The translations under genes were made by a program, and so were the position numbers. The notes under the pieces were generated by a model that worked only from the letters and a program-made list of their open reading frames with translations, had not been told where the DNA came from and did not search any database. Positions 19,521-41,173 of a DNA stretch of 63,107 bases are shown here, piece by piece. The stretch is from Bacteroidota bacterium (lineage in GTDB: Bacteria > Bacteroidota > Bacteroidia > Bacteroidales > JAIPAH01), in contig JAASSU010000002.1 in the NCBI GenBank assembly GCA_021767705.1, forward strand, positions 1 to 63,107, written 5' to 3'. Each line of letters begins with the position of its first letter. The stretch's first letter is position 1.

Positions 19521-20672
19521 TTATTCTGTTTGATAGCGTGGTATTCTTGAAGGCAGCCTGGTCAGCAGTTCGTAGTTCATACTGTTGTTCATATCGCTGA
19601 ACGAACTGACTGTGATGGTCTTTTCTCCCTGTTCGCCTATTAATACCACTTCATCGTGTACTTTCACTTCCGGTAAATCTGTTACATCTACAACCATCAT
19701 GTTCATGTTAACGGCCCCTACCACCGGAACACGTTTTCCGTTGATGAGCACATGCCCCATATTGCTCAGGTTTCTGCTAAACCCATAACCGTAACCAACG
19801 GGAACAGTGGCTATTTTGCTGTCGCGGTTGGTAATATAACTGGCACCATAGCTAACATACTCATTTTCTTTTACCCGGTTAACGCTCATTACTTTGCTTT
19901 TCCACGATAAGACCCTTTTTAGTGGATCTTTTAGTGACTTCCCGTTTTCAAGGTGCAGCATCTTTGTTTCGTTATCGGGCCAAAATCCATAATTCGATAT
20001 GCCCACACGTACCAGATCCATCGAGGACTCAGGAAAGTTTAGCACCCCTGCAGAGCATGCAAGATGGCGGTATCCCGGTTTCAAACCTGATTGCATAAAG
20101 TTACCGCATAGTTTTTTGAATGTGCTGATTTGTTGCCTGATACGGGGAAAGTTGCCCAGGTTTTCTGCTCCTGCAAGGTGCGAGCACAAGCCTTCCAAAA
20201 CAAGGTTTTCAGAATTGGACTTTAGTGTTTCCATTACCCAGGGCAACTGGTCGTTACAAAAACCAGTGCGGTGCATCCCGGTTTCCAGCTCCACATGTAT
20301 CCTTGCAGGCTTGGAGGTCTTTTTGCTTATCTCAACCACCTTTTCAAGCCTTTCGGGGGTGAAAACAAAAAACGAAATGTCGTTCTCAATAGCCCATTCA
20401 AGATAATCATCATCAACAAAACCCATGATCATGATGTGGCACGTTTCCTCTTTGACTTTGATGGCCCGCCGGGCTTCTTCCACACTGAAGACGGAAAAAT
20501 GATCCACGCCGCATTCTTCGATCATTGGCAACAGGTCTTCAATACCATGGCCGTAGGCATTAGCCTTGATGACCATAGAGAATTTAGCTCCCGGGCCAGC
20601 CTTTTCTTTCATAAACCTGATGTTGTTGTTTAACGCACTTTTGTTTAATTCGATGTAGGATGTAAAAAGCAT
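19521..20672 (-). CDS. alr: Alanine racemase
   Basis: PLP-lysine motif VIKANAYGHG, collinear with Alr throughout. I chose the start at MLFTSYIELN (20672). The track's longer ORF (to 20747) adds 25 non-conserved residues. Confidence 0.88.
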   Translation of the reverse strand: MLFTSYIELNKSALNNNIRFMKEKAGPGAKFSMVIKANAYGHGIEDLLPMIEECGVDHFSVFSVEEARRAIKVKEETCHIMIMGFVDDDYLEWAIENDISFFVFTPERLEKVVEISKKTSKPARIHVELETGMHRTGFCNDQLPWVMETLKSNSENLVLEGLCSHLAGAENLGNFPRIRQQISTFKKLCGNFMQSGLKPGYRHLACSAGVLNFPESSMDLVRVGISNYGFWPDNETKMLHLENGKSLKDPLKRVLSWKSKVMSVNRVKENEYVSYGASYITNRDSKIATVPVGYGYGFSRNLSNMGHVLINGKRVPVVGAVNMNMMVVDVTDLPEVKVHDEVVLIGEQGEKTITVSSFSDMNNSMNYELLTRLPSRIPRYQTE

Positions 20673-20791
20673 TTTCTGTAAAAGTTTTATAATGTTAAAG
20701 TTCTCATGACTCTTTCGGAAAAAACCATGCTTCAAAAGTGGCAGCACACTTTTTTCAGGCTCTGCTCAATCCTGTTAAAGAAAAAGGCAGC

Positions 20792-22732
20792 TCAAACCAG
20801 CGCCACATCGGTATGGATTTCGAGCAAGGCTGTTCCGTTATGCGACAGTACTTTTCTCATAGCTTCGCTCAGCTCTTTCTTATCGGTGACTTTAACACCC
20901 AGGGCCCCGCAACTGTTGGCGTATCCTGAAAAATCAGGATTGCCCAGGCCGGTGGCAAACACATCCAGCTCACCTGAACGCTGCTCTTTCGATATCTTGC
21001 CAAGCTCATTGTTGTTGAGCAGGATGAGCTTGATGTTCATCCCGTATTTTACGGAGGTGGTAAGCTCGGCCATATACTGGGCAAAGCCCCCGTCGCCGGC
21101 CACTGCCACTATCTGCTTGTTCCCTTTGGTTGCGGCCCAGGCGCCCATGGCCGCCGGAAAAGCAAAGCCAATAGAGCCCAGGTAACCCGACATCAAAAAC
21201 TGCTGGTCTTTACTCTCGAAATAACGCCCCAACGAATAGGCATTATTCCCCACATCCACGCATACAACCGCATTAGCATCAATCAGATCCGACAAATGGC
21301 TAAATACCGTCACGGAATTGATGCCTTTACCGCGGTCTTCGGCCAGCCTCTTATCTTTTTCTTGATGCCAGATTTCCCAGCGCTGTTTTATTTCAGGCCG
21401 CTGGTCTGTAGTGGTCACCTGATCCTTGAGTGCTTCTCTGAAAAGTTTCATGGTGGCAGACAACTCCCCCCACACCGGGGCATCAATTTTATGAAACTTA
21501 CTCAATGCCAAGGGATCCATATCGACCTGGATAGTGGGCTTTTTGGGTGTGATGCCGGTATGGTTGCTGAAAGACGCCCCCAACACAATGAGCAGGTCGC
21601 TTTCGTTCATAAACCACGAAGCGATAGGCGTGCCGCTGCGCCCGAGGACCCCACCGGCCAGCGGATGGTGATCGGAGATAAGGCCTTTGCCTTTGAAAGT
21701 GGTAAGCACCGGAGCGTTCAGTGTTTCAGCAAAAGCGATAATATCTTTCATATGGAATCGTGCCCCGTGGCCTACGATCACCACCGGCCTTTTTGCTTCT
21801 TTGATTAGCCCCAGCGCTTTGTTAAAGCTTCCTTCGGATGGGGAAATGGCATGAGCGCCCAGCCTGCCTTCAGGGGTCTGGGCTTGCTCATTGCCGGCAG
21901 GCAGCTCCTGTATCTCGTCAGGGAAAGTCAGGTGTGAAACATCGCGGTTAATAAGGGCATGTTTAATGGCGAGGGTCGCAAGTTCGGCATGCTGGCTGTC
22001 GCGCTGGATACGGTGATTGAATCCGGCTACCGTATTAAAAGCCCTCACCAGGTCCACTTCCTGGAAATTTCCTGTGCCCACGACCTGTGTAGCCACTTGT
22101 CCGGTCAGAGCCAGCAAGGGAGCCCGGTCGACTTTCGCATCCCACATGCCGGTAAACATGTTGGTAGCCCCGGGGCCGGCAATGGAAAAACAGGCTGCCG
22201 GTTTACCCGTAAGTTTCCCATAAGCGCTGGCGGCAAAAGCACCCGCGCCCTCATGACGGATGCCGATATACTTCAGCTTATCTTCTTTCTGTGCCCTCCT
22301 GAGGGCATCGGCCATTCCGAGGTTCGAGTGTCCCACCATTCCGAAAACAGTATCCACACCCCAATTAGCCATCGTTTTCACCATGACATCTGAAAGTGTT
22401 GTCTCATGTGGTTTCTCTTCTTCTATCCCAATGTAAACGCCATCTTCTCTTTCTTCCACAGGGTAAGTATCCACACCATCATCAAAACCCGGTGCTTTCC
22501 CGGTACAGGGGTGGTAATCCCAGCCGTGCCACGGGCAGCGCAGGATGCCGTTCTCAATGCTTCCCTCGCCAAGCGGGCCTCCCTGGTGCGGGCAATGGTT
22601 GTCGAGGGCGCATATCTTCCCTTCGTAATGTGACAGGGCTATTTGCTTTTTGCCGGCTGTTACGGTCATTACACGGCCGGCGGCCAATTCAGATTTGTTT
22701 TCGAGTACTTTTATCCAGTTCATAGGCTTCAT
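20792..22732 (-). CDS. Rieske [2Fe-2S] domain fused to a thiamine-diphosphate enzyme (PoxB/ALS/Xsc superfamily)
   Basis: Residues 47-69 read CPH-x16-CPWH (Rieske ligands). The TPP N-terminal domain follows (GVDTVFGMVGHSN..., GPGATNM), then the central domain, then the C-terminal ThDP-binding motif GDGGFAQY...LNNN. Confidence 0.85.
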   Translation of the reverse strand: MKPMNWIKVLENKSELAAGRVMTVTAGKKQIALSHYEGKICALDNHCPHQGGPLGEGSIENGILRCPWHGWDYHPCTGKAPGFDDGVDTYPVEEREDGVYIGIEEEKPHETTLSDVMVKTMANWGVDTVFGMVGHSNLGMADALRRAQKEDKLKYIGIRHEGAGAFAASAYGKLTGKPAACFSIAGPGATNMFTGMWDAKVDRAPLLALTGQVATQVVGTGNFQEVDLVRAFNTVAGFNHRIQRDSQHAELATLAIKHALINRDVSHLTFPDEIQELPAGNEQAQTPEGRLGAHAISPSEGSFNKALGLIKEAKRPVVIVGHGARFHMKDIIAFAETLNAPVLTTFKGKGLISDHHPLAGGVLGRSGTPIASWFMNESDLLIVLGASFSNHTGITPKKPTIQVDMDPLALSKFHKIDAPVWGELSATMKLFREALKDQVTTTDQRPEIKQRWEIWHQEKDKRLAEDRGKGINSVTVFSHLSDLIDANAVVCVDVGNNAYSLGRYFESKDQQFLMSGYLGSIGFAFPAAMGAWAATKGNKQIVAVAGDGGFAQYMAELTTSVKYGMNIKLILLNNNELGKISKEQRSGELDVFATGLGNPDFSGYANSCGALGVKVTDKKELSEAMRKVLSHNGTALLEIHTDVALV

Positions 22733-22755: not shown

Positions 22756-23616
22756 TTAAATAGCCAGTGTGTAAAGCATAAACAGACCCAAAATGGCGAA
22801 CAGCACCGAAATGCTGACCTTCATTTTGTCTTCGGGCACCTTGCTTTGCAGTTTAGCACCAATCTGACCGCCAATGATCACGCCGGGCCCTGTAAAAATA
22901 ATAAGGTTCAATACTTGCTCAAATGTTTCGGGCCCCTGATTGAGGAAAGCTACAAAATGTCCGGCAGATGCTATAAACACGGTAATGACCACTACAAAAA
23001 TGGAAGTCCCCACTGCTACCGGTGGCGGCACTTTACAACGGGCCACCAGGTGGTATTCCTGCAACTCGGCCAGCCCTACTGATATCATGCCCAAAAAGCC
23101 TCCTCCGATGGCTGCAAACGATCGGCCCATATTTTTGTTGCACACCGTGTAGTGGTACACATTGCCCTTGCCATCGGTAAGCTCGCTTTCGTAGGTTTTA
23201 TAAAATTCATGCTGCCTTTCTTTTTCCTTTTTCTCGCGTTCTTCCTTGCGCCATGAATTGTAAAGCTGAAAGCCGATAAAAACCAATCCCACCGCAAAAA
23301 CAGCTTTAAGGATAACCGGAGGGACTGCTTCGCTGTAGACAGCCCCCAGTATGGCAAAGGGAACGGAAAAAATCAACAGGTTGATGGCCAGCTTATAATC
23401 GACCAGCCGGGATCGCATGTAGGCGATGGCCCCTGATGTAAACCCAAAAAATTCGGTGGCCAGGGCCGTTCCTATTGCAACCGTGGGGTCGAGCCGCAAA
23501 GCCAGGATAAACAGTGGCGAAAAAAATACCGCCCCGCCCACACCGCTCGACATGGCGATTGTGGCTATCAGAATCGACAAGGGAAACAAGTACCAGAATT
23601 CAAGCGCGAGTTCCAT
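22756..23616 (-). CDS. TauE/SafE-family anion (sulfite/organosulfonate) exporter
   Basis: 286-aa protein with 4+4 TM helices, glycine-rich helices (SSGVGGAVFFSP, GGGFLGMISVG) and a charged central loop of about 45 aa. Confidence 0.8.
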   Translation of the reverse strand: MELALEFWYLFPLSILIATIAMSSGVGGAVFFSPLFILALRLDPTVAIGTALATEFFGFTSGAIAYMRSRLVDYKLAINLLIFSVPFAILGAVYSEAVPPVILKAVFAVGLVFIGFQLYNSWRKEEREKKEKERQHEFYKTYESELTDGKGNVYHYTVCNKNMGRSFAAIGGGFLGMISVGLAELQEYHLVARCKVPPPVAVGTSIFVVVITVFIASAGHFVAFLNQGPETFEQVLNLIIFTGPGVIIGGQIGAKLQSKVPEDKMKVSISVLFAILGLFMLYTLAI

Positions 23617-23619: not shown

Positions 23620-24426
23620 CTATAATTTTTGATGTAGATATCCGTTAGCGGCTTCCTGGATAAAACTTTGAATCATTTGATTGTCAGTTTTCAGATTTTG
23701 CCCAGTGAGGCGGTTGAGGGTTAAAACAGATCCTTTCCATGCCCCGTTGGTTATCCACTGTCCATCAGAAAGCCCTGCTAATTTTTTATAGTCTATCTCT
23801 GTTCCGGAAGCATATCCGGCAAGGTAGAAATAGGATTGTCCAGCCATGCTGTCTTCCATAGCCAGGCCAAAACCAATACCGAAGCCAGGGCTTACCTGCG
23901 CATACACTCCCGTGTCGAAGTGGTGGGGCCAGATACGTATCTCACTTTCAGCCTGTAAAAACCCCAGGAAATGGAGGCAGGCTTCATTGGCAAGCTGACG
24001 GAAATAGCTCCATTTTTGGATACCACTCTCATTGATGTCGTTTGAAGCTATGCGCCCTATTTTGTAATCGGGGATTTCAAAATGCAGTTCCCGGAATATT
24101 TTTTCCGCCGGAAGCCCTACCGACTGTGGATAAACTGAAACGTCCTGTTCGATTTCCTGCATGGTTTTGTTGAAAACCGAAATAGTGTCCTTTATGCCGA
24201 GATGCTGATCCATCCATTCAAAATGCATGGCTCTGACATTCAACGCAAGAAAGATTTTTTGCTGCTTGTGTTCCACCCAGCGGCCCGTAAGTTTGCCCGA
24301 TACCGGATCGAAATAAAGATTGGTGTGGCTGTCGTCTTCTTTTTCGGGCAGAAAAGCCCTGTTGGTCTTGGCAAGCACCTGGCTGAGCCAGTGTACCTGC
24401 CGGTCTGTCTTATTGTATTCCTGCAT
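23620..24426 (-). CDS. Hypothetical protein (no family recognised), embedded in the operon
   Basis: 268-aa ORF, soluble-looking. Its start overlaps the upstream gene's 3' end by 17 nt, and its stop lies 3 nt before the tauE-like start. Confidence 0.65.
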   Translation of the reverse strand: MQEYNKTDRQVHWLSQVLAKTNRAFLPEKEDDSHTNLYFDPVSGKLTGRWVEHKQQKIFLALNVRAMHFEWMDQHLGIKDTISVFNKTMQEIEQDVSVYPQSVGLPAEKIFRELHFEIPDYKIGRIASNDINESGIQKWSYFRQLANEACLHFLGFLQAESEIRIWPHHFDTGVYAQVSPGFGIGFGLAMEDSMAGQSYFYLAGYASGTEIDYKKLAGLSDGQWITNGAWKGSVLTLNRLTGQNLKTDNQMIQSFIQEAANGYLHQKL

Positions 24427-26017
24427 AGTTAATTCCTGTTAATTGGTGTATTGAATAATCGATAGTTGAAAGATCGTCTGCGTTAAACTGCGTAACGGAT
24501 GAATAACCACAGGCTCTTGCAATGACCTTCATAAGCTCGTTGCTGGCATCAAAAAAGTTGTGCAGTTGCTTTGCCGAATTTTGTACGATGATGCGGTTCC
24601 TGAGGTTTTCTTTTTGTGTGGCAATCCCCACCGGGCAATTGTTGGTGTGGCAGGCCCTCATGCCGAGGCAGCCGATAGCCTGCAGGGCCGCGTTAGATAC
24701 TGCGATGGCATCGGCCCCCAACATCAGTGCTTTAGCAAAGTCATCAGCCACACGGAGGCCACCGGTAACAATGAGTGTGACATCACCGGCCTCTTTCTTA
24801 TCGAGATGTTTCCGTGCCCTGGCAAGTGCCGGGATCGTGGGCACGTTGATGTTGTTACGCAGGATGGAGGGCGCGGCTCCTGTTCCGCCGCCACGGCCAT
24901 CGAGTATAATGTAATCGGCAGAAGCTTCGAGGGCAAAATCAATATCGGCTTCTAGGTGGCTTGCCGCGATTTTAAACCCCACGGGAATCCCTCCGGTTTC
25001 TTCCCTGACCCGGTCGGCCAGCTCTTTGAAATCGGCAGGGGTATTCAAGTCGGGGAAAGCAGCCGGCGAAATGGCGGCCTGTCCTTCTTCCAATCCCCTG
25101 ACAGAAGCTATCTCGCCGGTGACCTTGTGCCCGGGAAGGTGCCCGCCGGTGCCGGTTTTTGCTCCCTGACCTCCCTTGAAGTGGAAGGCCTGTACTTTTC
25201 TGACCTTGTCCCACGAAAAACCAAACTTCCCGGACGCCAACTCATAAAAGTAACGTGAATTGCTTTGCTGTTCTTCAGGCAACATACCCCCTTCGCCACT
25301 GGCAATGCCGGTACCGGCCATTTCAGCGCCTTTAGCAAGGGCTATCTTGGCTTCGCGCGATAAGGCCCCGAAGCTCATGTCCGACACAAAAACAGGCATG
25401 TCGAGCACTAAAGGTTTTTGGGCGCGAGGGCCGATCACCACCTTAGTATCCACCTTGTCGTTGTCCATCAAAGGTTTCCGCGACAGTTGCGCCGGCAGAA
25501 ACTGAATCTGCTCCCACTTCGGAAGGGTGTTTCTGTCCACTCCCATTGCCTCGGTAGAGCCGTGGTGGCCGACATTCTTCAGCCCGTTACGGGCCAACTC
25601 CTGGATATATCCGGTAAAAGGCTCGGTATCCTCGGGGTGCGTATCGGCATACTGACCCATATACGCATCGCGATCGAAGGGCTGCGGGTGCTCCTCGGCA
25701 AATGCCTCCACTTCATCGGCATCTACCAGCACCTGGTCGTTCTCCACTTTAGCATAAAACTTTTGCAGGGCCTCCTCGTTGTTGTATTCCGAAACGCCGC
25801 TATCATAGCGGTAATCCCAGAAATGCACCCCGCAGATGAGGTTATCACCTTCGATGTGGCCATCGGCAAGCAGGGCGCCGCGGTGCAGGCAACGGCCATA
25901 CAGCACCGAAATGTTCTCATCGTAGCGTATCACCACTAAATCAACATCTTTGCAGATAGCATGGGCCGGGGCACGGTCTTGCAGTTCCGAAAACTTTAGA
26001 ATGGGTATTAAATTCAT
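24410..26017 (-). CDS. Rieske [2Fe-2S] domain fused to a glutamate-synthase-type FMN domain (GltB domain 2-like)
   Basis: Residues 43-65 read CLH-x16-CGVH. The GltS FMN-domain motifs follow: DMSFGALSREAKIALAKGA, SGEGG, and KGGQGAKTGTGGHLPGHKV. Confidence 0.85.
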   Translation of the reverse strand: MNLIPILKFSELQDRAPAHAICKDVDLVVIRYDENISVLYGRCLHRGALLADGHIEGDNLICGVHFWDYRYDSGVSEYNNEEALQKFYAKVENDQVLVDADEVEAFAEEHPQPFDRDAYMGQYADTHPEDTEPFTGYIQELARNGLKNVGHHGSTEAMGVDRNTLPKWEQIQFLPAQLSRKPLMDNDKVDTKVVIGPRAQKPLVLDMPVFVSDMSFGALSREAKIALAKGAEMAGTGIASGEGGMLPEEQQSNSRYFYELASGKFGFSWDKVRKVQAFHFKGGQGAKTGTGGHLPGHKVTGEIASVRGLEEGQAAISPAAFPDLNTPADFKELADRVREETGGIPVGFKIAASHLEADIDFALEASADYIILDGRGGGTGAAPSILRNNINVPTIPALARARKHLDKKEAGDVTLIVTGGLRVADDFAKALMLGADAIAVSNAALQAIGCLGMRACHTNNCPVGIATQKENLRNRIIVQNSAKQLHNFFDASNELMKVIARACGYSSVTQFNADDLSTIDYSIHQLTGINYAGIQ

Positions 26018-27237
26018 GGTTCCAATTTTAGATTTGTTTTTATTTCAATTTCGGACAAAAGGGTTTTGTGCACCGGGCATTTGTTCGCTATTTCGAGCAG
26101 TTTTTGGCGTTGTTTGTCATCCAACTCCCCAATCAACTCTATTTCCCTTGAAAACTGATCGATACGGCTGCTTTCGTCGTTTTCGCATTTAGCGCAATCT
26201 TCTCCATGCACTTTGTTATGGTCGATGTGCACATTGACCTCATCAAGTTTCCATTTCTTACGGTCGGCATAAATCCTGATGGTCATGGCTGTGCAGGTAG
26301 CCAGGCCTGATGAGACGAGATCGTAAGGGGTTGGGCCAAAATTGTTTCCTCCGTATTTTTCGGGTTCATCCCCGGTCAAAAAATGATCGCCGGCCTTAAT
26401 GGCGGTGGTAAACTTGTTTTCTTCAGTGAGGCTGGCCACCACCTGCCTCTTAGTCTGCGGCCTGGCAGGCTCCTTAAAGTCGATATACCTTTTGGCCCAG
26501 TGGGCAATCACATTACCAATGTAGCGCGAATCACCGCCATCAGAAAGCAGGTGGTCGGCCCCATCAAGAGAAACAAAGCTTTTGGGGTGGCGCGCCGCCT
26601 GGAATATTTTTGCAGCATTCTCTATTTCCACCACCCTGTCTTGTGGCGAGTGGGACACAAGAATGGCTTTGCGGAGGTTTTTCAGCACATCATCCATGTT
26701 GACCGCTTTCAGGTCATCAAGAAATTGTTTTTTGATTTTGAAAGGCCTTCCACCGATGTTTACTTCTGCCATGCCCTTTTCTTCAATATCTTCAAGGCTT
26801 GAAGAAAGTAGTTTGGAAACATGCATCGGGTCGGAGGGGGCACCGATAGTGGCTACGGCATCTACCGTTTTCATGGAGTGGGCCGCATATAAAACCGCAG
26901 CACCGCCCAGCGAATGGCCGATAAGTAGTGAGGGTGCCATGAAATTTTCTTCGAGAAAGCTGGCTGCGGATTTCAGGTCATCGATATTGCTTGAAAAATT
27001 GGTGTCGGAAAAGTCCCCTTCACTGTCGCCCAAGCCCGTAAAATCAAAGCGCATGATACCAAACCCTGCTCCGGTAATGGCCCTGCTTATATTACGTACC
27101 GCCGAAAGGTTTTTTGTGCAGGTAAAGCAGTGTGCAAACAGTGCAAAACCGCCCGGTTTTCGGTCGGCAGGCAGCTCTATCCGGGCATTCAGTTCAATGC
27201 CTTCTTTGTTGGTAAATGTAACTTTCTGACTTTTCAT
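26014..27237 (-). CDS. Bifunctional alpha/beta-hydrolase / OsmC-family protein
   Basis: Nucleophile elbow GHSLGG in the N-terminal half. The C-terminal OsmC-like region includes GLATCTAMTIRIYA and ANKCPVHKTL. I chose the start at MKSQKVTF (27237); the track ORF extends to 27288. Confidence 0.85.
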   Translation of the reverse strand: MKSQKVTFTNKEGIELNARIELPADRKPGGFALFAHCFTCTKNLSAVRNISRAITGAGFGIMRFDFTGLGDSEGDFSDTNFSSNIDDLKSAASFLEENFMAPSLLIGHSLGGAAVLYAAHSMKTVDAVATIGAPSDPMHVSKLLSSSLEDIEEKGMAEVNIGGRPFKIKKQFLDDLKAVNMDDVLKNLRKAILVSHSPQDRVVEIENAAKIFQAARHPKSFVSLDGADHLLSDGGDSRYIGNVIAHWAKRYIDFKEPARPQTKRQVVASLTEENKFTTAIKAGDHFLTGDEPEKYGGNNFGPTPYDLVSSGLATCTAMTIRIYADRKKWKLDEVNVHIDHNKVHGEDCAKCENDESSRIDQFSREIELIGELDDKQRQKLLEIANKCPVHKTLLSEIEIKTNLKLEP

Positions 27238-27291
27238 TGGGTTCTTATTTTTGATAATTCCACATCGTGTTAAACTTATTTTCAGCACATT

Positions 27292-28653
27292 TCAGGCATG
27301 AACCGGCAAACGTCCTTCGGCTACCTGCGAAAAATACCTTTCAATATTTTGTATTCCCTGGTTAATGAGTGGACAGTAAGCCTTGAAAAAAGCCGTTTGT
27401 TCCTGTTCTGAGGATGGGTTTTCACGTTTCCAGTTTTCAAGAACTGCATCGCCGTCATAATCAACAAAACTGAACCTTACCGAAAAATCATCCTCAGGCA
27501 AGAGTAAACTGTTGCCCGGTAACAGGGCCGTATGTTCAACCTCTATCAAATGTTCGCATAAATTAGCGCAGTTGGTTAAACCTATTGTTTTCAGTTCCTC
27601 AGCATACTCGTTAAAATCAACATAAAGATAAAAACCCCCATAAGGCACTGTGGCTTTCACACCGTGTATATTGTTTAATAAACCAGCAGCAATTCGTCCG
27701 ATTGTTGCATGAATGCGTGCCGTATCCGTCATATATTTTTCAACCGCCTCAATCCTGCTGAATCCTGCCAAAGCTGCATATTGAATGGGGGCGGCCACAC
27801 ATGAGTAGGTAGAGCCAGCCACAATCAACACATCCTTGATCAGCTTCTCATTATCCGGGAAAACACCTATCCCGAGCCGATACCCCCCGGCAGAGCGGTC
27901 TTTCGACAGCCCCCCGGTTACGATAGTGCCTTCGGGAAAGATTTTTCCCATGCTGATGAATTTGCTGAAATCGAAAGAAGTCCGCGCATAGATTTCATCG
28001 GCTATTACTATGATGTTGTGTTTCCGGCAAATGGTGGCCAGGGCTTTTAGCTCATCTTCTGTGTAAACGGCACCTGTGGGATTGTTGGGGTTGTTCAGGA
28101 TGAGAATATGCTGATCGTGGCTCGAATTGTTTGCTGCTTTTTCGAGAAGGGCCGGGGTCAGTTTAAAATGGCTGTCTTCGTGCAACCTGATGGGCTGTAC
28201 CTGCTTTTTCAGGATAAGAGCCTGTGGAAGATAGCTGACCCACGATGGGGTGGGTATCAATACGTCCCCTTCCGTAACACTCAAAATAATACTGATTATT
28301 TCTTTGCTTCCCGGGCTGATGATTACCTGGCGGGCCTGGCTCTGCAGCTTGAAAACATCATTGTAGTAATCTGAAACAGCCTTCCTTAATTCGGCAATGC
28401 CCGCCGTGGGCAGGTAGCTGTGCTTATTCGCATTATCTCTGAGCGCATTGATGATTTCAGCAGGAGGCGAAAATGGCGACTGTCCGAAAGCAAAATGATG
28501 ATAAGGTCGGTGGCAGCCTATCTTCGAGCATTTTTCACGATATTTTTTTATCTGGTCGTTGATACGCAGGTTGGCCGGAATGGCGATGCTATCGAGATGA
28601 TGCTCGAGTTTTATTTCCATTTTTTTTCTCTTGTTGAATAAATTAAAAATCAT
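27292..28653 (-). CDS. PLP-dependent aminotransferase, class I/II fold (a C-S lyase cannot be excluded)
   Basis: Motifs NNPNNPTG, ADEIY and the PLP-lysine motif LSKDRSAGGYRLG. The ATG at 28653 overlaps the upstream stop (ATGA). An alternative ATG lies at 28620. Confidence 0.85.
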   Translation of the reverse strand: MIFNLFNKRKKMEIKLEHHLDSIAIPANLRINDQIKKYREKCSKIGCHRPYHHFAFGQSPFSPPAEIINALRDNANKHSYLPTAGIAELRKAVSDYYNDVFKLQSQARQVIISPGSKEIISIILSVTEGDVLIPTPSWVSYLPQALILKKQVQPIRLHEDSHFKLTPALLEKAANNSSHDQHILILNNPNNPTGAVYTEDELKALATICRKHNIIVIADEIYARTSFDFSKFISMGKIFPEGTIVTGGLSKDRSAGGYRLGIGVFPDNEKLIKDVLIVAGSTYSCVAAPIQYAALAGFSRIEAVEKYMTDTARIHATIGRIAAGLLNNIHGVKATVPYGGFYLYVDFNEYAEELKTIGLTNCANLCEHLIEVEHTALLPGNSLLLPEDDFSVRFSFVDYDGDAVLENWKRENPSSEQEQTAFFKAYCPLINQGIQNIERYFSQVAEGRLPVHA

Positions 28654-29606
28654 AAGCCCCAGAGTGAATTAACAAACCATTTACGGTGGTCGTAATAATT
28701 TTTGATTATCCTGAAACCTGCTTCAGTTGCATGTTCCGATATCATCTGTTCATCATATTTCTGTGAAATTTCCACGAAAATGGTTTCATTTTCGGCAAAC
28801 GAAATAGACATATCGAGTTTTTCTAAACGAACAGCCTGTTCTTTTTTACTTACTAAAAAACTTTTTGCGGCCCCGCTGTTTTGGTCATATTTTTCTTTGT
28901 GAACGAAATTGGCAGTGTTAAAATCAGCCTCCAATTCTTCATTGATGCGTGTAAGCAGGTTGAGGTTAAAGGCTGCAGTAAGGCCCTGAGGGTCGTTGTA
29001 GGCTTTTAGTATTATTTCCGGATCTTTTTTTAAATCAAAGCCAATGAGTAGTTTATCCCCTTCATTTAATACTTTACGCACTTGTTGTAAAAAGTTTACG
29101 GACTGCCCATAAGTAAAATTCCCAATGTTTGATCCGAGGAAAAGGGCAATCTTAGGTTTTGATCCGTTTAACCCTGATATTAAGTGAAAATAATCGCCCG
29201 TAAGCCCCTCAATCTTTAATTGTGGCAACTCCGATGCCAGTTGCTGTTGAAGTTGCATAATTGCCTGATGCGAAATATCAATGGGGATGTACCTGAAATC
29301 CATTCCCTGGTGAAGCAATGCTTTTAATAGTATTTTTGTTTTCAAACCATCACCGGCCCCCAGTTCAATGATTTCAAATTCACCGGCATCCGAAATGAAA
29401 TCCCGGCAGATAGTATTTTTTTGTTCAGAAAATATTTCAAGCTCACAGTCGGTGAGGTAATATTCATCCATTCGCATGATCGCCTCAAAAATTTCGCTGC
29501 CTTTTTGATCATACAGGTACTTTGACTGAAGATATTTTGGGGAAGACGAAAGCCCCCTCCGGACCTCTTCAGCAAATTCTGTTGTGGTTAATGTAGCATT
29601 TTCCAT
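28650..29606 (-). CDS. EgtD-like SAM-dependent amino-acid N(alpha)-methyltransferase (Methyltransf_33 family)
   Basis: 318 aa. Motifs PKYLQSKYLYDQKGSEIFEAI...EYYLTDCELEI and ELGAGDGLKT...YIPIDIS are collinear with histidine N-alpha-methyltransferase EgtD. The substrate is not inferable. Confidence 0.82.
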   Translation of the reverse strand: MENATLTTTEFAEEVRRGLSSSPKYLQSKYLYDQKGSEIFEAIMRMDEYYLTDCELEIFSEQKNTICRDFISDAGEFEIIELGAGDGLKTKILLKALLHQGMDFRYIPIDISHQAIMQLQQQLASELPQLKIEGLTGDYFHLISGLNGSKPKIALFLGSNIGNFTYGQSVNFLQQVRKVLNEGDKLLIGFDLKKDPEIILKAYNDPQGLTAAFNLNLLTRINEELEADFNTANFVHKEKYDQNSGAAKSFLVSKKEQAVRLEKLDMSISFAENETIFVEISQKYDEQMISEHATEAGFRIIKNYYDHRKWFVNSLWGL

Positions 29607-29763: not shown

Positions 29764-31101
29764 CTAACTATCTGCAAGTTCTTTTTTGACTTCCGGTAAC
29801 TTGCTTTCATTTGACAAATGTTTTGGCTTTAGCAGGATGCGCAAGGATTGGTCGTAGGTAAAATAATTCCAAGTCCAGTTCAGGAAAATGAGCATCCGGT
29901 TTTTCACGCCCATGATGGTGAATAAATGAACCAGCGACCACAGCACCCAAGCTGCAAAGCCTTTGATTTTTCCTACAGGCAAATCAGCCACGGCGAGGTT
30001 ACGGCCTATGGTAGCCAGCGAACCCTTATCCCTATATTCAAAGTCTTCCTCTTTTTCGCCACTATTGGCTTTTACCAGGTTTTTTGCCAATTGCTTCGCT
30101 TGCTGTAATGCCGCTTGAGCAACCTGCGGGTGGCCATTGGGATATTTGGGGGTTTCCATCAGGCTGATATCGCCGATAGCAAAAATGTTCGTGTGGCTTC
30201 TGATCCTGTTTTGTCGATCCACCAGGATGCGTCCGCCCCGGCCATATGCTTCCTGTGGCAGGCCCAGCACTGCATTTGCTGTAACGCCCGCCGACCAGAT
30301 CAGGGTTTTTGACGAAACTGAGCTGCCATCAGACAACCTCACACAAGAACCATCGTGGTGTTCTACCCGGGTTTTCAGGTGAACTTCAACGCCCAATTTC
30401 TGGAGGTACTTCAGTGCGCTTGCCGATGCTCGTTCCGATAAGGCTGCCAGCACCCTTGGAGCAGCTTCATAAATGGCAATGCGCATTTTCGAAAGATCCA
30501 GTTCCGGGTATTCTTTCGGGAAGATGTATTTGCGCATTTCAGCCAAAGCCCCGGCGAGCTCCACACCCGTTGGGCCTCCACCAACAATGGCAATGTTCAT
30601 GTATTGTTCTGCTTTTTTCGGATCTGTTTCCAGCAGAGCCTGCTCGAAATGTTCGAGAATGCTGTTGCGGATAAGGATGGCATCGGAAGCGGACTTCATC
30701 GACAAGGCATTGTTTTCCATTTCTTTCTGGCCGAAAAAGTTGGTTTTTGCGCCCATAGCCAGCACAAAGTAATCATATTTCAGCCGCCCTATGCTGGTAA
30801 CAACCTCATTGGCCCCTGCATCCACACGCTCTATTTCTGCAATGCGGAAATGTACATCGCCGGCATTTTGCAGCACTTTCCTTAACGGGAAGGAGATAGC
30901 ACTGGGCTCAAGCCCGGCAGTGGCCACCTGGTAGAGCAGTGGCTGAAACTGGTGAAAGTTGTTCTTGTCCAGTAAAATAATCTGAAACCCTTTCCCCAGT
31001 AATTTCCGGGTCAGTTTCAACCCGGCAAAACCTGCGCCGGCAATTACTACCCTTTTCTTATTTGTGCCTGGTATATTTGGTATTGCATTCATATTCTCCA
31101 T
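29764..31101 (-). CDS. Type II NADH dehydrogenase (NDH-2)
   Basis: Two dinucleotide folds (VVIAGAGFAGL and IAIVGGGPTGVELAG), FAIGD, and a C-terminal membrane-anchor region. Confidence 0.88.
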   Translation of the reverse strand: MENMNAIPNIPGTNKKRVVIAGAGFAGLKLTRKLLGKGFQIILLDKNNFHQFQPLLYQVATAGLEPSAISFPLRKVLQNAGDVHFRIAEIERVDAGANEVVTSIGRLKYDYFVLAMGAKTNFFGQKEMENNALSMKSASDAILIRNSILEHFEQALLETDPKKAEQYMNIAIVGGGPTGVELAGALAEMRKYIFPKEYPELDLSKMRIAIYEAAPRVLAALSERASASALKYLQKLGVEVHLKTRVEHHDGSCVRLSDGSSVSSKTLIWSAGVTANAVLGLPQEAYGRGGRILVDRQNRIRSHTNIFAIGDISLMETPKYPNGHPQVAQAALQQAKQLAKNLVKANSGEKEEDFEYRDKGSLATIGRNLAVADLPVGKIKGFAAWVLWSLVHLFTIMGVKNRMLIFLNWTWNYFTYDQSLRILLKPKHLSNESKLPEVKKELADS

Positions 31102-31205
31102 AAAACATTCTGATTGTTATTACGAATCAATTTTTTTATTTGAGGAATTTCTTCCTGTAACCCATTTGGATTGTATAAACTCTTCCCGCATAAACAAGAC
31201 TATGT

Positions 31206-31850
31206 TTAGTCTTCACTTTCTAATGCTTCCAGGATATCCGCCACATTCGACCGCTTTTTGTAATCGGGGTTAAACTGACGCCAGGTAATGGTCCCGCTTT
31301 GGTCTATCACATAAGTGGCCGGTATGGGCAGTCGCTGGCTCTCATCAGAATGTGTTTTTTTCAGTTTTGCCCCCAAGAGGGTGTTGTAAGTTATTAAGGT
31401 AGCTTTAGAGGGCTTAAAAGTGACATCATAGGCGTCTGAAATTTTGTAGCCTTCATCGTACAGCAAGGTAAATTCCGCGCCCGTTTTCTTCTCCATCTTG
31501 CCCAGGTATTCCGGCTTTTCGGGGGATATTGCAATGACTTTGGCCCCTTTTTCCTCTATAAGCTTCAGGCTGTCTTGTATTTTGCTCAGGTGCTTGTTAC
31601 AAACCGGGCACCAAAACCCGCGGTAAAAAATTAATACCACCGGCCCTTGTTTTAGGGCTGCTTCAAGTGAAAATGTATTGTTGTTGGCATCGAGGGCGCT
31701 AAAAACAGGGGCTCTTGTGCCCACGGAAAGGCCCTCGGCTTCTTTGGCCGAACGGTAGTCTTGTGCTTTCATATCTGATATATTTAAGGTGAAAATAATG
31801 GCAAGGATGAGCCCTTGGATGGCTTTGCTTTTTCTGCTGTTTCTATTCAT
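31206..31850 (-). CDS. Secreted thioredoxin-fold peroxiredoxin/redoxin (AhpC/TSA family)
   Basis: Signal peptide, then FYRGFWCPVCNKHL (CxxC). I chose the start at MNRNSRK (31850); the track ORF extends to 31883. Confidence 0.82.
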   Translation of the reverse strand: MNRNSRKSKAIQGLILAIIFTLNISDMKAQDYRSAKEAEGLSVGTRAPVFSALDANNNTFSLEAALKQGPVVLIFYRGFWCPVCNKHLSKIQDSLKLIEEKGAKVIAISPEKPEYLGKMEKKTGAEFTLLYDEGYKISDAYDVTFKPSKATLITYNTLLGAKLKKTHSDESQRLPIPATYVIDQSGTITWRQFNPDYKKRSNVADILEALESED

Positions 31851-32042
31851 GCTTGTTGTTTTTTGTCGTTTCAAAATGACCAATCACCCTATTAGTGTTT
31901 GTTTTTCGAAAACCTGACAAAACGAACAGCATTTTTTTGGGACAGGCTGTTTAATGGGGCGTATGGGGGCACATATTTTGAGATCTAAACCACAAACCCA
32001 AAGGCAGGATCAAAAACATAATCATCACAAATCATTATTTAT

Positions 32043-33425: not shown

Positions 33426-34103
33426 TCAGCGCAAGCGAAGCAAAGGACTGATACTGAACGGAGGTTGTTCTATCGCGAATTCCTTGTAAACGGCCACTGG
33501 AATTCCAAGGTCGGCGAGATAGACCTGAATGTTGTGGGGCAACTTTAGCAATTCGGTTTTCATGGCCGCCAATGTCATCACAATATCCGGATTGAAGATG
33601 GATGAGCCAGTGTTTTTGTCAAACCCCACCGGAATATCGAGGGAAATTTTGGTGCAATTCAAGTTGTTTGCTTTCTTTACGGAGTCAAGTAAATTATCGG
33701 CGAGGGGCAGTCTTTGCGAAAACCCCAGGTACGCATCGACAAAAATATCGGGTTGTTCGTTAGTGAATTCCTTTGCCCCAAAAGTTTCAGCCCTTTCCTT
33801 TTGTAACCCAGGTAATGGTTTCAGGTTATTATCGGGGATGTCTAAGAACAGCTTGTAGCCCCACGCAGCCAAACGGCGTGCGGCTACCAGTCCTCCGCCG
33901 CCATTGTTGCCTTTGCCAACTCCAATCACCACATTACAGGGCTTTGGTTTTATATGTGTTACGAGGACAGCCAACTGTAAACCGGCATTCTCCATCATCA
34001 GCTCAATCGGGAGCTGGTAGTTTGAAACCGCGAGGTAATCCATTTCCTGAAAACGCTGAATAGAAAGGTGGTTTTTGCCGGTTTTATAATCTGGGATAAT
34101 CAT
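33426..34103 (-). CDS. NAD(P)H-hydrate epimerase (YjeF N-terminal domain only)
   Basis: GKGNNGGGGLVAARRL and DAYLGF motifs of the YjeF_N family. 225 aa, with no fused dehydratase domain. Confidence 0.8.
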   Translation of the reverse strand: MIIPDYKTGKNHLSIQRFQEMDYLAVSNYQLPIELMMENAGLQLAVLVTHIKPKPCNVVIGVGKGNNGGGGLVAARRLAAWGYKLFLDIPDNNLKPLPGLQKERAETFGAKEFTNEQPDIFVDAYLGFSQRLPLADNLLDSVKKANNLNCTKISLDIPVGFDKNTGSSIFNPDIVMTLAAMKTELLKLPHNIQVYLADLGIPVAVYKEFAIEQPPFSISPLLRLR

Positions 34104-37172: not shown

Positions 37173-37305
37173 TGATATTTTCTTTTGTGATTGTTTTAAA
37201 ACTCGCGCAAAACTAATGATTTGTTACGATAGAAAAACTAACGCAACTGTTTTTCTATTATTGTTTGTCTCTTCTGATTGTTGAAATTTTATTACGCCAC
37301 AGCAT

Positions 37306-41121: not shown

Positions 41122-41173
41122 CTCAATTCTCTTCCCTGTGTTAATACTTCTCTAAGCAATCATCTGTTTTTTA

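What the first reader, a model, noticed from the sequence alone, without database searches (positions are those of the whole stretch)
24410..26017. Second Rieske fusion in the same operon: Rieske plus glutamate-synthase FMN domain without GltD or amidotransferase partners
Residues 43-65 read CLH-x16-CGVH, the same ligand spacing as in the ThDP fusion. The GltB domain-2 core follows (MSFGALSREAKIALAKGA, GEGG, GQGAKTGTGGHLPG). Canonical GltS takes electrons from GltD or ferredoxin through a 3Fe-4S cluster and needs a glutaminase domain, and neither is present in this window. Two unrelated catalytic scaffolds in one operon each carry the same type of N-terminal electron-transfer module. This argues for a shared redox partner or a closed electron loop between them.
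Basis: partly seen in the sequence, partly recalled or inferred. Interest (0 to 1): 0.65.

Follow-up and report, generated by a model that had tools for sequence, protein, structure and literature searches.

The report
Rieske-fused glutamate-synthase-like iron-sulfur flavoenzyme
This gene encodes a stand-alone copy of the FMN/iron-sulfur "synthase" half of glutamate synthase with a Rieske electron-transfer domain tethered to its front; the family is very large and untested, and it is conserved next to a second Rieske-fused (pyruvate-oxidase-like) enzyme and an unknown protein, which points to an undescribed electron-transfer network.

Summary
Window 24410-26017 (minus strand) encodes a 535-aa protein with three parts. 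The N-terminal Rieske [2Fe-2S] domain has ligands C43/H45/C62/H65. A low-confidence linker follows. The C-terminal part is a GltB-type FMN domain that keeps the three [3Fe-4S] cysteines and the synthase-site residues E/K/Q/K/R. No GltD, amidotransferase or GXGXG domain lies in the window.

The family has thousands of members and I found no study of it. Near-orthologous catalytic domains carry CDGSH, Fer4_19, rubredoxin or rubrerythrin modules instead of Rieske, so the N-terminal cluster is an interchangeable one-electron relay.

The conserved core is Rieske-GltS, an unknown 268-aa protein ("u268") and the Rieske-ThDP enzyme. The window's other genes (EgtD, aminotransferase, OsmC fusion, TauE, racemase) are lineage-specific. 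Many genomes add a third Rieske fusion, a membrane di-haem cytochrome b. The two soluble Rieske modules are not each other's closest relatives, so a module duplication is not supported.

Best reading: a glutamate/2-oxoglutarate-type dehydrogenase that passes electrons out through its Rieske domain to an acceptor shared with the ThDP enzyme. The main rival is a closed loop, pyruvate-driven glutamate synthesis. Ergothioneine genes (eanB-eanA, egtB-egtD) and peroxidases recur beside the cluster.

The parts
24410..26017 (-). Rieske-GltS gene (535 aa): Rieske [2Fe-2S] + linker + GltB-type FMN/[3Fe-4S] domain
25721..26008 (-). Rieske domain (residues ~4-99). The ligand motif C43-x-H45...C62-x2-H65 is encoded at 25823-25891. 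It lacks the extra disulfide cysteines of bc1-type Rieske proteins.
   Evidence: Pfam; motif; invariant in 80/80; nearest solved sequences are the oxygenase ferredoxins T4moC and TodB
25523..25690 (-). Linker (residues ~110-165) with low model confidence; likely a flexible tether
   Evidence: AF2 pLDDT of 49-76 in blocks 111-160, against more than 90 in both domains
24506..25465 (-). Glu_synthase (PF01645) FMN TIM-barrel domain. Synthase-site residues are E242, K281, Q284, K287 and R307; the loop K281-R307 is encoded at 25097-25177.
   Evidence: Foldseek top hits 1ofe/1ofd/7mfm/1ea0/1llw, E 1e-22 to 1e-25
24635..24670 (-). [3Fe-4S] ligand motif C450-x5-C456-x4-C461-P
23620..24426 (-). u268: 268-aa protein of unknown function. 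Its start overlaps the end of the Rieske-GltS gene by 17 nt. It is the most constant neighbour of the GltS fusion.
   Evidence: Present in 44/81 loci, mostly immediately downstream. About 950 homologues, all 'hypothetical'. Invariant H12, D31, H34, W166-P-H-H-F-D171. AF2 pLDDT 94; no Foldseek match in PDB or BFVD. Weak hits to DUF5996 in 10/38 members.
22756..23616 (-). TauE/SafE-family anion exporter; lineage-specific insert that also recurs in a few related loci
20792..22732 (-). Rieske-ThDP fusion: Rieske domain plus a pyruvate-oxidase/acetolactate-synthase-type ThDP enzyme with three TPP_enzyme domains
   Evidence: 26% identity over 539 aa to E. coli PoxB, E 3e-62; synteny
19521..20747 (-). 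Alanine racemase, last gene of the run
   Evidence: TIGR00492, 306 bits against a cut-off of 168
26014..27288 (-). alpha/beta-hydrolase + OsmC fusion, directly upstream with a 4-nt overlap
   Evidence: also upstream of the homologue in L002 and L068
27292..28653 (-). Class I/II aminotransferase; nearest solved structures are glutamate-dependent Asp/prephenate aminotransferases
28650..29606 (-). EgtD/EanA-type histidine N-alpha-methyltransferase, first gene of the tightly packed run
   Evidence: TIGR03438, 305 bits against a cut-off of 290.9; recurs next to the cluster in related loci
29764..31883 (-). NDH-2-like flavoprotein (29764-31101) and AhpC/TSA peroxiredoxin (31206-31883). They lie upstream on the same strand, separated by gaps of 157 and 104 bp.
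   Evidence: the peroxiredoxin heads the equivalent clusters in L001, L090, L092, L097, L105, L110 and L128

Best explanation
The gene encodes a soluble iron-sulfur flavoenzyme: the isolated 'synthase' module of glutamate synthase (FMN plus [3Fe-4S]). It retains the glutamate / 2-oxoglutarate(+NH3) active site and is joined by a flexible linker to a low-potential-type Rieske [2Fe-2S] domain.

Proposed mechanism. The enzyme works as a dehydrogenase. L-glutamate, or a very close 2-amino-dicarboxylate, is oxidised at FMN to the 2-imino/2-oxo acid plus ammonia. The two electrons then leave one at a time along FMN -> [3Fe-4S] -> Rieske -> external acceptor. The co-encoded Rieske-ThDP enzyme does the same for pyruvate, as an irreversible oxidative decarboxylation (ThDP/FAD -> Rieske). 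Both would feed a common acceptor. In many Bacteroidota that acceptor is the neighbouring membrane di-haem cytochrome b-Rieske protein. In the window's organism the acceptor is not identified; u268 is a candidate.

Shown: domain content, cofactor ligands, conserved active-site residues, conserved synteny, and interchangeability of the N-terminal Fe-S module. Inferred: the substrate, the direction of electron flow, and the identity of the acceptor.
For: Cofactor sites and catalytic residues. Pfam, PDB-sequence and Foldseek matches place the C-terminal part with the GltS FMN domain. Numbering on chain 1llw_A shows E903, K966, Q969, K972 and R992 aligned with E242, K281, Q284, K287 and R307. These residues, the 3 Cys of the [3Fe-4S] cluster and the 4 Rieske ligands are each invariant in 80/80 homologues.

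Relay role of the N-terminal domain. Catalytic domains 65-70% identical and carrying the same family signature (T288, H293, R375, N442; also T290 in the two closest) have CDGSH [2Fe-2S] domains instead of Rieske. By catalytic-domain identity, Rieske- and CDGSH-fused forms interleave. The linker has low pLDDT.

Direction of electron flow.
- The swapped modules (Rieske without a disulfide, CDGSH, rubredoxin) are of higher potential than the natural GltS donors (general knowledge).
- A large, genuine family fuses the same catalytic domain (48% identity, same catalytic residues) to rubrerythrin, an electron-consuming peroxidase: all 120 best hits share the architecture.
- In L044, L050 and L062 the GltS fusion sits directly beside the membrane Ferric_reduct-Rieske gene with no ThDP gene between them. 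That protein has invariant His pairs H86/H98 and H168/H181, typical of two b haems.
- The window operon adds a glutamate-linked aminotransferase and an alanine racemase, which would funnel alanine to pyruvate plus glutamate, the two proposed substrates. Some related loci carry a malic enzyme, which makes pyruvate.

Coupling. Two-way synteny across Flavobacteriaceae, Saprospiraceae, Cyclobacteriaceae, Roseivirgaceae and Bacteroidales persists despite gene-order changes.
Against: - Every characterised enzyme with this domain runs reductively in vivo. GltS cofactor potentials (FMN about -240 mV, [3Fe-4S] about -280 mV; PMC8097209) make glutamate oxidation uphill at the first step.
- No acceptor is encoded in the 63-kb window. 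The membrane Rieske protein is near the gene in only 22/81 loci.
- A donor (ThDP enzyme) paired with an acceptor (GltS-like enzyme) would explain the tight pairing without any third party.
- Substrate identity rests on conserved residues whose roles I recall from the GltS literature. Three positions next to the catalytic Lys differ from GltB and are fixed in the family (P973->T288, E975->T290, Q978->H293), so specificity may differ.
- No expression or biochemical data exist; only DNA metagenome runs hold the sequence.
Confidence: 0.42

Rival explanations
1. Closed electron loop: pyruvate-driven, NAD(P)H- and ferredoxin-independent glutamate synthesis. The Rieske-ThDP enzyme oxidises pyruvate and hands electrons Rieske-to-Rieske to this enzyme. 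This enzyme then reductively aminates 2-oxoglutarate with free ammonia. The pair would be an oxygen-tolerant replacement for PFOR plus ferredoxin/GltD-dependent GltS.
For: Full retention of the GltS synthase site and the [3Fe-4S] cluster. The pairing with an enzyme that can only be an electron donor is tight and conserved in both directions. No acceptor gene lies in the window. The overall reaction is strongly exergonic (general thermodynamics). The cluster sits among oxidative-stress genes (peroxiredoxin, OsmC, ergothioneine genes), which fits an O2-tolerant back-up role.
Against: About half of the GltS-anchored loci have no ThDP gene within 10 kb. Some have the membrane cytochrome b-Rieske gene adjacent instead. 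Relatives of the catalytic domain are fused to rubrerythrin, an electron sink. Rieske and CDGSH modules are poor reductants for a -240/-280 mV FMN/[3Fe-4S] pair. The two Rieske modules are not co-evolved duplicates.
Confidence: 0.25
2. Same cofactor chain but a different substrate: another amino/imino or 2-oxo acid, an N-methyl amino acid, or an intermediate tied to ergothioneine/hercynine metabolism. u268 would be the partner enzyme.
For: Family-fixed substitutions flank the catalytic Lys (T288, T290, H293), along with R375 and N442, all different from GltB. Ergothioneine biosynthesis genes recur in two versions directly beside GLTS-u268: eanB-eanA in at least 11 loci and egtB-egtD in L020, L064 and L138. 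u268 follows EgtD and DUF427 even in loci without the GltS gene (L112, L118, L128, L138). N-methylglutamate synthase shows that the fold can do other amine chemistry (general knowledge).
Against: E/K/Q/K/R are invariant even in distant fusions, which argues for a common, GltS-like substrate. Most loci (77/81 genome loci) have no ergothioneine gene nearby. Hercynine and ergothioneine have a quaternary amine that cannot form the imine this chemistry needs.
Confidence: 0.15
3. The Rieske domains of both enzymes deliver electrons to u268. u268 would be a new His/Asp metalloprotein acting as terminal reductase (peroxide, oxygen or an oxidised thiol). The logic resembles a Rieske oxygenase split over separate proteins, or the rubrerythrin fusion.
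For: u268 is the most constant neighbour, lies between the two Rieske genes, and is translationally coupled to the GltS gene in the window. Its invariant residues H12, D31, H34, H168, H169 and D171 look like a metal site. It has a confident but unmatched fold. The rubrerythrin fusion of a related catalytic domain gives a precedent. The neighbourhood includes peroxiredoxin, OsmC and ergothioneine genes.
Against: There is no evidence that u268 binds a metal or any redox cofactor, and no homology to a known reductase. u268 is missing near the GltS gene in about 45% of loci.
Confidence: 0.12
4. Ordinary glutamate synthase whose amidotransferase and GltD partners are simply encoded elsewhere in the genome.
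For: The FMN domain and [3Fe-4S] ligands are GltB-like. Only 63 kb of the genome is visible.
Against: The central and GXGXG domains, which are part of the same polypeptide in GltB, are absent. More than 8000 homologues were retrieved, and the 120 best listed (533-560 aa) all have this Rieske + FMN-domain architecture. The NCBIfam GltB model scores 140 bits against a cut-off of 1047. The N-terminal Fe-S module replaces the GltD relay.
Confidence: 0.03

Closest known systems
Glutamate synthase large subunit (GltB / Fd-GltS), FMN 'synthase' domain
   Same: PF01645 TIM barrel. The [3Fe-4S] cysteine triad. Synthase-site residues corresponding to E903, K966, Q969, K972 and R992 of Synechocystis Fd-GltS. 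These are the best sequence and structural matches.
   Different: About 33% identity only. No Ntn-amidotransferase, central or GXGXG domains, and no GltD. A Rieske domain provides the electron link. Three loop residues next to the catalytic Lys differ.
Type 5 CDGSH iron-sulfur domain proteins (tandem CDGSH + glutamate-synthase FMN domain; Lin et al. 2011, PMC3174974)
   Same: Near-orthologous catalytic domain (65-70% identity) with largely the same family signature residues; the closest pair (69-70%) matches at all five positions. An N-terminal [2Fe-2S] module joined by a linker. Function unknown.
   Different: The N-terminal module is CDGSH, not Rieske. The one neighbourhood with enough flanking DNA showed no ThDP or u268 gene (L082); the other contig ends just after the gene (L085).
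Rubrerythrin-fused GltB-FMN-domain proteins of anaerobic Firmicutes (annotated 'rubrerythrin')
   Same: Same stand-alone catalytic domain with the same catalytic residues and [3Fe-4S] cysteines, fused to iron redox modules.
   Different: 48% identity. The module is C-terminal and is itself a terminal peroxidase. There is no Rieske domain.
Flavocytochrome b2 (L-lactate:cytochrome c oxidoreductase)
   Same: Design logic: an FMN TIM-barrel dehydrogenase carrying a tethered N-terminal one-electron domain that relays electrons to an external acceptor. It is the second-best group of structural matches for the barrel.
   Different: Haem b5 domain instead of Rieske. No Fe-S cluster. It is an alpha-hydroxy-acid oxidase, not an amino-acid oxidase. 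This is an analogy only.
Pyruvate oxidase / pyruvate:quinone oxidoreductase (PoxB), for the partner gene
   Same: Three TPP_enzyme domains and the GDG...NN ThDP motif. The best NCBIfam hit is pyruvate oxidase (405 bits). 26% identity to E. coli PoxB.
   Different: Below every equivalog cut-off. It has an N-terminal Rieske domain. Homology to E. coli PoxB ends at PoxB residue 525 of 572, so no counterpart of its C-terminal ~45 residues (from memory, the lipid-binding segment) is present.

Membership tests
Canonical glutamate synthase (GltBD / Fd-GltS) | FMN-binding synthase domain (PF01645) | tested here: met
   306 bits, E 5e-91; Foldseek E 6e-25 to 1ofe
Canonical glutamate synthase (GltBD / Fd-GltS) | [3Fe-4S] cluster ligands C-x5-C-x4-C | tested here: met
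   C450/C456/C461 align with the GltB cysteines and are invariant in 80/80
Canonical glutamate synthase (GltBD / Fd-GltS) | Synthase-site residues (Fd-GltS E903, Q969, K972, R992) | tested here: met
   E242, Q284, K287 and R307 are invariant. The roles of these residues are recalled from the GltS literature and were not re-checked in a paper.
Canonical glutamate synthase (GltBD / Fd-GltS) | N-terminal Ntn glutamine amidotransferase domain, central domain and C-terminal GXGXG domain in the same polypeptide | tested here: not met
   The protein is 535 aa. Pfam finds only Rieske + Glu_synthase. tblastn of E. coli GltB hits only residues 863-1126. The NCBIfam GltB model scores 140 bits against a cut-off of 1047.
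Canonical glutamate synthase (GltBD / Fd-GltS) | GltD (NADPH/FAD/2x[4Fe-4S]) partner | tested here: not met
   No GltD hit in the 63-kb window. The rest of the genome is not available.
Rieske [2Fe-2S] domain (ferredoxin type) | C-x-H ... C-x2-H ligands within a Rieske fold that passes the HMM threshold | tested here: met
   PF00355, 43.9 bits against 20.3; motif at residues 43-65; beta-rich model with pLDDT above 90; weak matches to T4moC and TodB
Rieske [2Fe-2S] domain (ferredoxin type) | Actual cluster binding and midpoint potential | not testable with these tools
   Absence of the bc1-type disulfide cysteines suggests a low-potential type; this is an inference only.
Rieske non-haem iron oxygenase | Rieske domain fused to a catalytic domain with a 2-His-1-carboxylate mononuclear iron site | tested here: not met
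   The C-terminal part is an FMN TIM barrel.
Type 5 CISD (CDGSH + GltS FMN domain) | Tandem CDGSH motifs N-terminal to the FMN domain | tested here: not met
   No CDGSH motif or Pfam hit. The catalytic domain is nevertheless 65-70% identical to CDGSH-fused proteins.
N-methylglutamate synthase (MgsABC) | FMN-domain subunit encoded with GATase-like (MgsA) and GXGXG (MgsB) subunits | tested here: not met
   No such genes in the window or in the conserved neighbourhood. One JGI label naming a homologue 'subunit C' is automatic.

The most novel reading that the evidence does not exclude
The Rieske-GltS, Rieske-ThDP and (where present) cytochrome b-Rieske proteins, together with u268, form a previously undescribed electron-supply network that is independent of NAD(P)H and ferredoxin. 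It would draw electrons from the abundant metabolites glutamate and pyruvate. It would deliver them, Rieske to Rieske, to antioxidant or periplasmic acceptors. u268 would be a new metalloenzyme. The system would be functionally tied to ergothioneine, given the eanB-eanA or egtB-egtD, peroxiredoxin and OsmC genes in the same clusters.
Probability: 0.15. Interest if true: 0.85.

Novelty: new variant of a known kind. Interest (0 to 1): 0.62.

Why it matters
Glutamate synthase is a textbook Fe-S flavoenzyme. Its catalytic half also exists as a very large, highly conserved and unstudied stand-alone family: more than 8000 homologues were retrieved, about 70-80% identical across Bacteroidota families.

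The comparative data make three things testable. First, whether the GltS synthase module can act as a respiratory or stress-linked glutamate dehydrogenase. Second, whether Rieske domains serve as protein-to-protein connectors between soluble dehydrogenases and a NOX-like membrane cytochrome. Third, what the ubiquitous partner u268 does; it has a confident, unmatched fold and a putative metal site.

The recurring link to anaerobic (EanAB) and aerobic (EgtBD) ergothioneine genes offers a lead on how bacteria supply or recycle this antioxidant. If the closed-loop alternative is right, the pair would be an oxygen-tolerant, pyridine-nucleotide-independent route to glutamate.

Tried and rejected
- Literature: ten full-text searches were run. 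Terms covered Rieske + glutamate synthase, PF01645, ThDP/pyruvate oxidase + Rieske, 'FMN-binding glutamate synthase family', ergothioneine + Rieske, and EanB + glutamate synthase. None found a paper on this architecture or cluster. Only the CDGSH papers note the sister fusion.
- Expression: only DNA metagenome runs (marine, sediment, subsurface) hold the sequence, so co-transcription could not be checked.
- Promoter and terminator scan: counts equal the shuffled expectation, and the sigma-70 consensus is not appropriate for Bacteroidota. The operon call rests on overlaps and 3-44 bp gaps.
- u268: no Pfam family for the window protein. There were no significant PDB sequence hits and no Foldseek hits in PDB or BFVD (best E 0.07 and 0.02, TM about 0.2). 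The only signal is a weak, partial DUF5996 match.
- Neighbourhoods of distant representatives (P0242, P0243, P0249, P0251): the contigs are too short to test synteny. One showed a Crp-like regulator upstream again.
- Module-shuffling idea: rejected by the Rieske comparison.
- Canonical GltS with missing partners: rejected on domain content.
- Distances between clusters in the AF2 model could not be measured because coordinates are not exposed. pTM 0.75 and the low-confidence linker mean the domain arrangement is not reliable anyway.
Full report
**1. What is there**

The finding's coordinates match an ORF on the minus strand, 24410..26017 (535 aa, ATG).
- Pfam gives a Rieske domain over residues 4-79 (43.9 bits, cut-off 20.3). 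It also gives the 'conserved region in glutamate synthase' PF01645 over residues 185-504 (306 bits).
- The Rieske ligand motif is C43-L-H45-x16-C62-G-V-H65. The ThDP fusion at 20792-22732 has C47-P-H49-x16-C66-P-W-H69, with identical spacing.
- The three cysteines that hold the [3Fe-4S] cluster in GltB are also present (C450-x5-C456-x4-C461-P). They align with those of the E. coli, Azospirillum, Bacillus and Synechocystis enzymes.
- tblastn of E. coli GltB and GltD against the whole 63-kb window finds only this FMN-domain segment. There is no GltD, amidotransferase, central or GXGXG domain.

**2. Active site**

The PDB chain 1llw_A (Synechocystis Fd-GltS) is numbered as in the literature. In the alignment, E903, K966, Q969, K972 and R992 fall on E242, K281, Q284, K287 and R307 of the window protein. 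I recall these residues as the 2-oxoglutarate/2-iminoglutarate site of GltS. The residue types at those numbers agree with that memory, but I could not re-read the primary papers.
- In 80 homologues from genomes, these five residues, the three cluster cysteines and the four Rieske ligands are all invariant.
- Family-fixed differences from GltB sit next to the catalytic Lys: P973->T288, E975->T290, Q978->H293. R375 and N442 also differ.

**3. Structure**

An AlphaFold2 model has mean pLDDT 90 and pTM 0.75. It shows a beta-rich N-terminal domain, a low-confidence linker (pLDDT 49-76 over about residues 111-160) and a TIM barrel.
- Foldseek's best matches are the FMN domains of glutamate synthases (1ofe, 1ofd, 7mfm, 2vdc, 1ea0, 1llw; E 1e-22 to 6e-25, about 400 columns).
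- The next group is the flavocytochrome b2 / alpha-hydroxy-acid oxidase family.
- The poorly defined linker suggests a mobile, tethered electron-transfer domain. This is an inference.

**4. How big and how known is the family**

A word-indexed search returned the maximum of 8000 hits.
- The best 120 all have the same Rieske + Glu_synthase architecture, are 533-560 aa long and 74-100% identical. They come from Bacteroidales, Flavobacteriales, Cytophagales, Balneolaceae and others.
- They carry only generic names: 'glutamate synthase-related protein', 'Rieske 2Fe-2S domain-containing protein', 'alpha-hydroxy-acid oxidizing protein'.
- No NCBIfam model covers the family; the GltB model scores 140 bits against a cut-off of 1047.
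- Of ten full-text literature searches, eight aimed at this architecture, the ThDP fusion or the cluster found no paper on them; one looked up GltS active-site residues and found nothing.
- The only related mention is the sister fusion, tandem CDGSH + GltS FMN domain. It is catalogued as 'type 5 CISD' without a function (PMC3174974, PMC5859297).

**5. The N-terminal module is interchangeable**

An exhaustive HMMER search of 50%-identity representatives gave 6137 proteins at E<1e-3 and 689 at E<1e-30.
- Pfam on the nearest ones shows the same catalytic domain fused to different modules:
  - Rieske;
  - two CDGSH motifs;
  - Fer4_19 + CDGSH;
  - CDGSH + Fer4_19 + Rieske;
  - C-terminal rubrerythrin + rubredoxin-like domain;
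  - CCG + rubredoxin.
- Ranked by catalytic-domain identity to the window protein, the order is Rieske forms (71-100%), CDGSH forms (65-70%), then Rieske forms again (50-60%) interleaved with CDGSH forms. The closest CDGSH proteins share the family signature T288/T290/H293/R375/N442.
- All variants keep E/K/Q/K/R and the three cysteines.
- The rubrerythrin fusion is a genuine, populous family. All 120 best hits share it, mostly about 700 aa and on many long contigs, for example Candidatus Fimenecus.

Conclusion: this is a clade of stand-alone GltS 'synthase' modules that exchange single electrons with the outside through whichever small iron centre is attached.

**6. What is conserved around it**

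I fetched 80 genome loci anchored on the GltS fusion, called ORFs crudely and clustered them.
- Neighbour counts, out of 81 loci including the window:

| Neighbour | Loci |
|---|---|
| u268, usually immediately downstream | 44 |
| Rieske-ThDP | 42 |
| NhaP-type antiporter | 34 |
| Crp-like regulator, upstream | 24 |
| 343-aa membrane protein with a Ferric_reduct domain and a C-terminal Rieske domain | 22 |
| Unknown protein u265 flanking the membrane protein | 21 |
| Unknown protein u139 flanking the membrane protein | 17 |
| DUF2721 | 16 |

- A typical flavobacterial order is Crp > GLTS > u268 > DUF2721 > THDP > u139 > cytochrome b-Rieske > u265 > (K+ channel) > NhaP.
- The pairing survives rearrangement: THDP lies upstream in L008, L058 and L069, and on the opposite strand in L066.
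- The reciprocal test used 80 metagenome loci anchored on the ThDP fusion. The GltS fusion was present in 42 of them. Among the 35 loci with at least 4.5 kb of upstream DNA, it was present in 25.
- The window's EgtD, aminotransferase, abhydrolase-OsmC, TauE and Alr are not part of the conserved core.
- In the window itself, the eight genes from EgtD (29606) to Alr (19521) are packed with overlaps of 4, 4 and 17 nt and gaps of 3-44 bp. They are very probably one transcript; the consensus scans were uninformative.

**7. The Rieske modules compared**

I aligned Rieske domains from 81 GltS fusions, 41 ThDP fusions and 21 membrane proteins, with E. coli HcaC and HcaE as references.

| Pair | Mean identity |
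|---|---|
| GltS-type vs ThDP-type | 22% |
| ThDP-type vs membrane-type | 33% |
| ThDP-type vs HcaC | 26% |
| GltS-type vs HcaC | 18% |

- In a neighbour-joining tree each class is monophyletic. ThDP + membrane types group together, with HcaC, to the exclusion of the GltS type.
- The two soluble enzymes therefore did not acquire their modules by duplication of one another. The tree is crude (about 100 columns), but the identity gap is clear.
- The membrane protein has invariant His pairs H86/H98 and H168/H181 plus further TM histidines, as expected for two b haems. Its Rieske ligands are also invariant.

**8. u268**

- About 950 homologues were found. All are 'hypothetical' and none has a Pfam domain.
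- Invariant residues include H12, D31, H34, T35, R49, W50 and the block R164-I-W-P-H-H-F-D171.
- The AF2 model is confident (pLDDT 94, pTM 0.90). It has no significant structural neighbour in PDB or BFVD and no PDB sequence relative.
- Ten of 38 members give weak hits to DUF5996.
- u268 is cytoplasmic by sequence (no signal peptide or TM segment).
- Its His/Asp pattern suggests a metal site, but this is unproven.

**9. Ergothioneine and oxidative-stress context**

- The window's first operon gene passes the EgtD equivalog cut-off (305 bits against 290.9).
- In L020 and L064 (Oceanihabitans, Winogradskyella) the order is GLTS > u268 > EgtB (525 bits, cut-off 360) > EgtD.
- In L001 and at least ten ThDP-anchored loci the order is peroxiredoxin > (DUF427) > a 431-aa rhodanese protein > EgtD > GLTS > u268 > (malic enzyme) > THDP, with variants.
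- The rhodanese protein matches PDB 6ktv/6h98 'Sulfurtransferase' at 693 bits. From memory, those entries are Chlorobium limicola EanB, the anaerobic ergothioneine synthase.
- EgtD occurs in 14/80 ThDP-anchored loci.
- The window lacks EanB, EgtB and DUF427. It does have an AhpC/TSA peroxiredoxin (31206-31883), an OsmC fusion, a YjeF_N protein and an ECF sigma factor nearby.
- This recurring association through two different ergothioneine routes is unlikely to be chance. It may reflect co-regulation rather than shared chemistry, because most loci lack these genes.

**10. Mechanism and direction**

Shown: cofactor-binding residues for Rieske [2Fe-2S], [3Fe-4S] and FMN; a GltS-type substrate site; a tethered, exchangeable one-electron module; and conserved linkage to a ThDP enzyme whose chemistry (oxidative decarboxylation) can only donate electrons. 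That enzyme is 26% identical to PoxB and its best NCBIfam hit is pyruvate oxidase.

I favour the dehydrogenase direction: glutamate -> FMN -> [3Fe-4S] -> Rieske -> acceptor. The reasons are:
- the attached modules are of higher potential than the physiological GltS donors;
- a sister family is fused to the electron sink rubrerythrin;
- the gene sometimes sits directly beside the NOX-like cytochrome b-Rieske gene without the ThDP gene;
- the window's aminotransferase (nearest solved relatives use glutamate/2-oxoglutarate) and racemase would turn D/L-alanine into exactly pyruvate + glutamate.

Arguments against this direction:
- all characterised homologues work reductively;
- GltS cofactor potentials are low (PMC8097209);
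- no acceptor is visible in the window;
- a donor-acceptor pair is the most economical reading of the tight pairing.

I put the general picture at about 0.8: a GltS-type Fe-S flavoenzyme wired through Rieske to the co-encoded partners. For direction and substrate I put the oxidative direction at about 0.42, the closed loop at about 0.25, and other substrates or acceptors at the remainder.

**11. Verdict**

Redox coupling of the two fusions is well supported by comparative genomics, and a shared partner is plausible. Module shuffling is not supported, and the window's 'operon' is not the conserved unit. This is a new variant of a known enzyme kind, in a large and unstudied family. The unexplained partner u268 and the link to ergothioneine genes raise its interest.

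Noticed in passing
L003:15457-16488 and 21 other loci (e.g. L012, L032, L035, L080); not in the window: A third Rieske fusion: a 343-aa membrane protein with a Ferric_reduct (NOX/MsrQ-like) domain and a C-terminal Rieske domain. Invariant His pairs H86/H98 and H168/H181 suggest two b haems. It is always flanked by two membrane-anchored unknowns: u139, and u265 with an invariant C170...H183-x2-C186-x3-C190 motif.
   Followed up: partly
L001:7673-9945; L090, L092, L097, L105, L110, L112, L113, L118, L128; L020:12350-14500: Ergothioneine biosynthesis genes sit directly beside GLTS-u268-THDP in several lineages: eanB-like rhodanese + egtD/eanA, or egtB + egtD. They often lie behind a peroxiredoxin and with a DUF427 gene. 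The window has only the methyltransferase (28650-29606) and no sulfur-inserting enzyme within 63 kb.
   Followed up: partly
window 26014-27288 (-): A fusion of an alpha/beta-hydrolase with an OsmC-like (peroxiredoxin-type) domain, translationally coupled to the Rieske-GltS gene. The same fusion lies upstream of the homologue in L002 and L068, and near the ThDP gene in L154.
   Followed up: no
P0260 and P0391-P0509: A large family in anaerobic Firmicutes (e.g. Candidatus Fimenecus) fuses a zinc-ribbon/rubredoxin-like N-terminus, the GltB FMN/[3Fe-4S] domain and a C-terminal rubrerythrin in one ~700-aa protein, annotated only as 'rubrerythrin'. This implies a substrate-driven peroxidase.
   Followed up: partly
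window 29764-31101 (-); L094: The NDH-2-like flavoprotein upstream of EgtD also precedes DUF427-eanB-egtD in L094. It has weak similarity to sulfide:quinone reductase and 'Nterm_to_SelD' models. It might supply sulfane sulfur rather than act as an NADH dehydrogenase.
   Followed up: no
window 33426-34103 (-); c16/YjeF_N in L022, L036, L048, L094, L111, L112, L125, L133, L135, L136, L142, L143: A stand-alone YjeF_N (NAD(P)HX-epimerase-type) gene recurs between u268 and the ThDP gene in many loci. In the window it sits 1.5 kb upstream of the peroxiredoxin.
   Followed up: no
L006, L014, L015, L023, L028, L032, L036, L048 and others: Flavobacterial versions of the cluster end with a K+ channel, an NhaP antiporter and a protein with the PycTM domain (Pycsar effector-type TM domain). 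The PycTM protein is in a non-defence context.
   Followed up: no
L083:697-1398 and 24 genome loci: A Crp/cNMP-binding regulator lies immediately upstream of the Rieske-GltS gene, even for a homologue only 45% identical. This suggests dedicated regulation; the effector is unknown.
   Followed up: no
window 32090-33256 (+): An AAA_14/DUF4143 ATPase gene on the opposite strand separates the peroxiredoxin from the YjeF_N and ECF-sigma genes. It is absent at the corresponding place in L090/L092-type loci.
   Followed up: no
window 36003-45013 (-): PorV (type IX secretion) is followed by two very large ORFs (1271 and 1279 aa). A Por_Secre_tail protein lies at 18347-19405. These confirm a Bacteroidota origin. 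The closest genome locus is a Bacteroidales MAG (L002, 95% identity).
   Followed up: no
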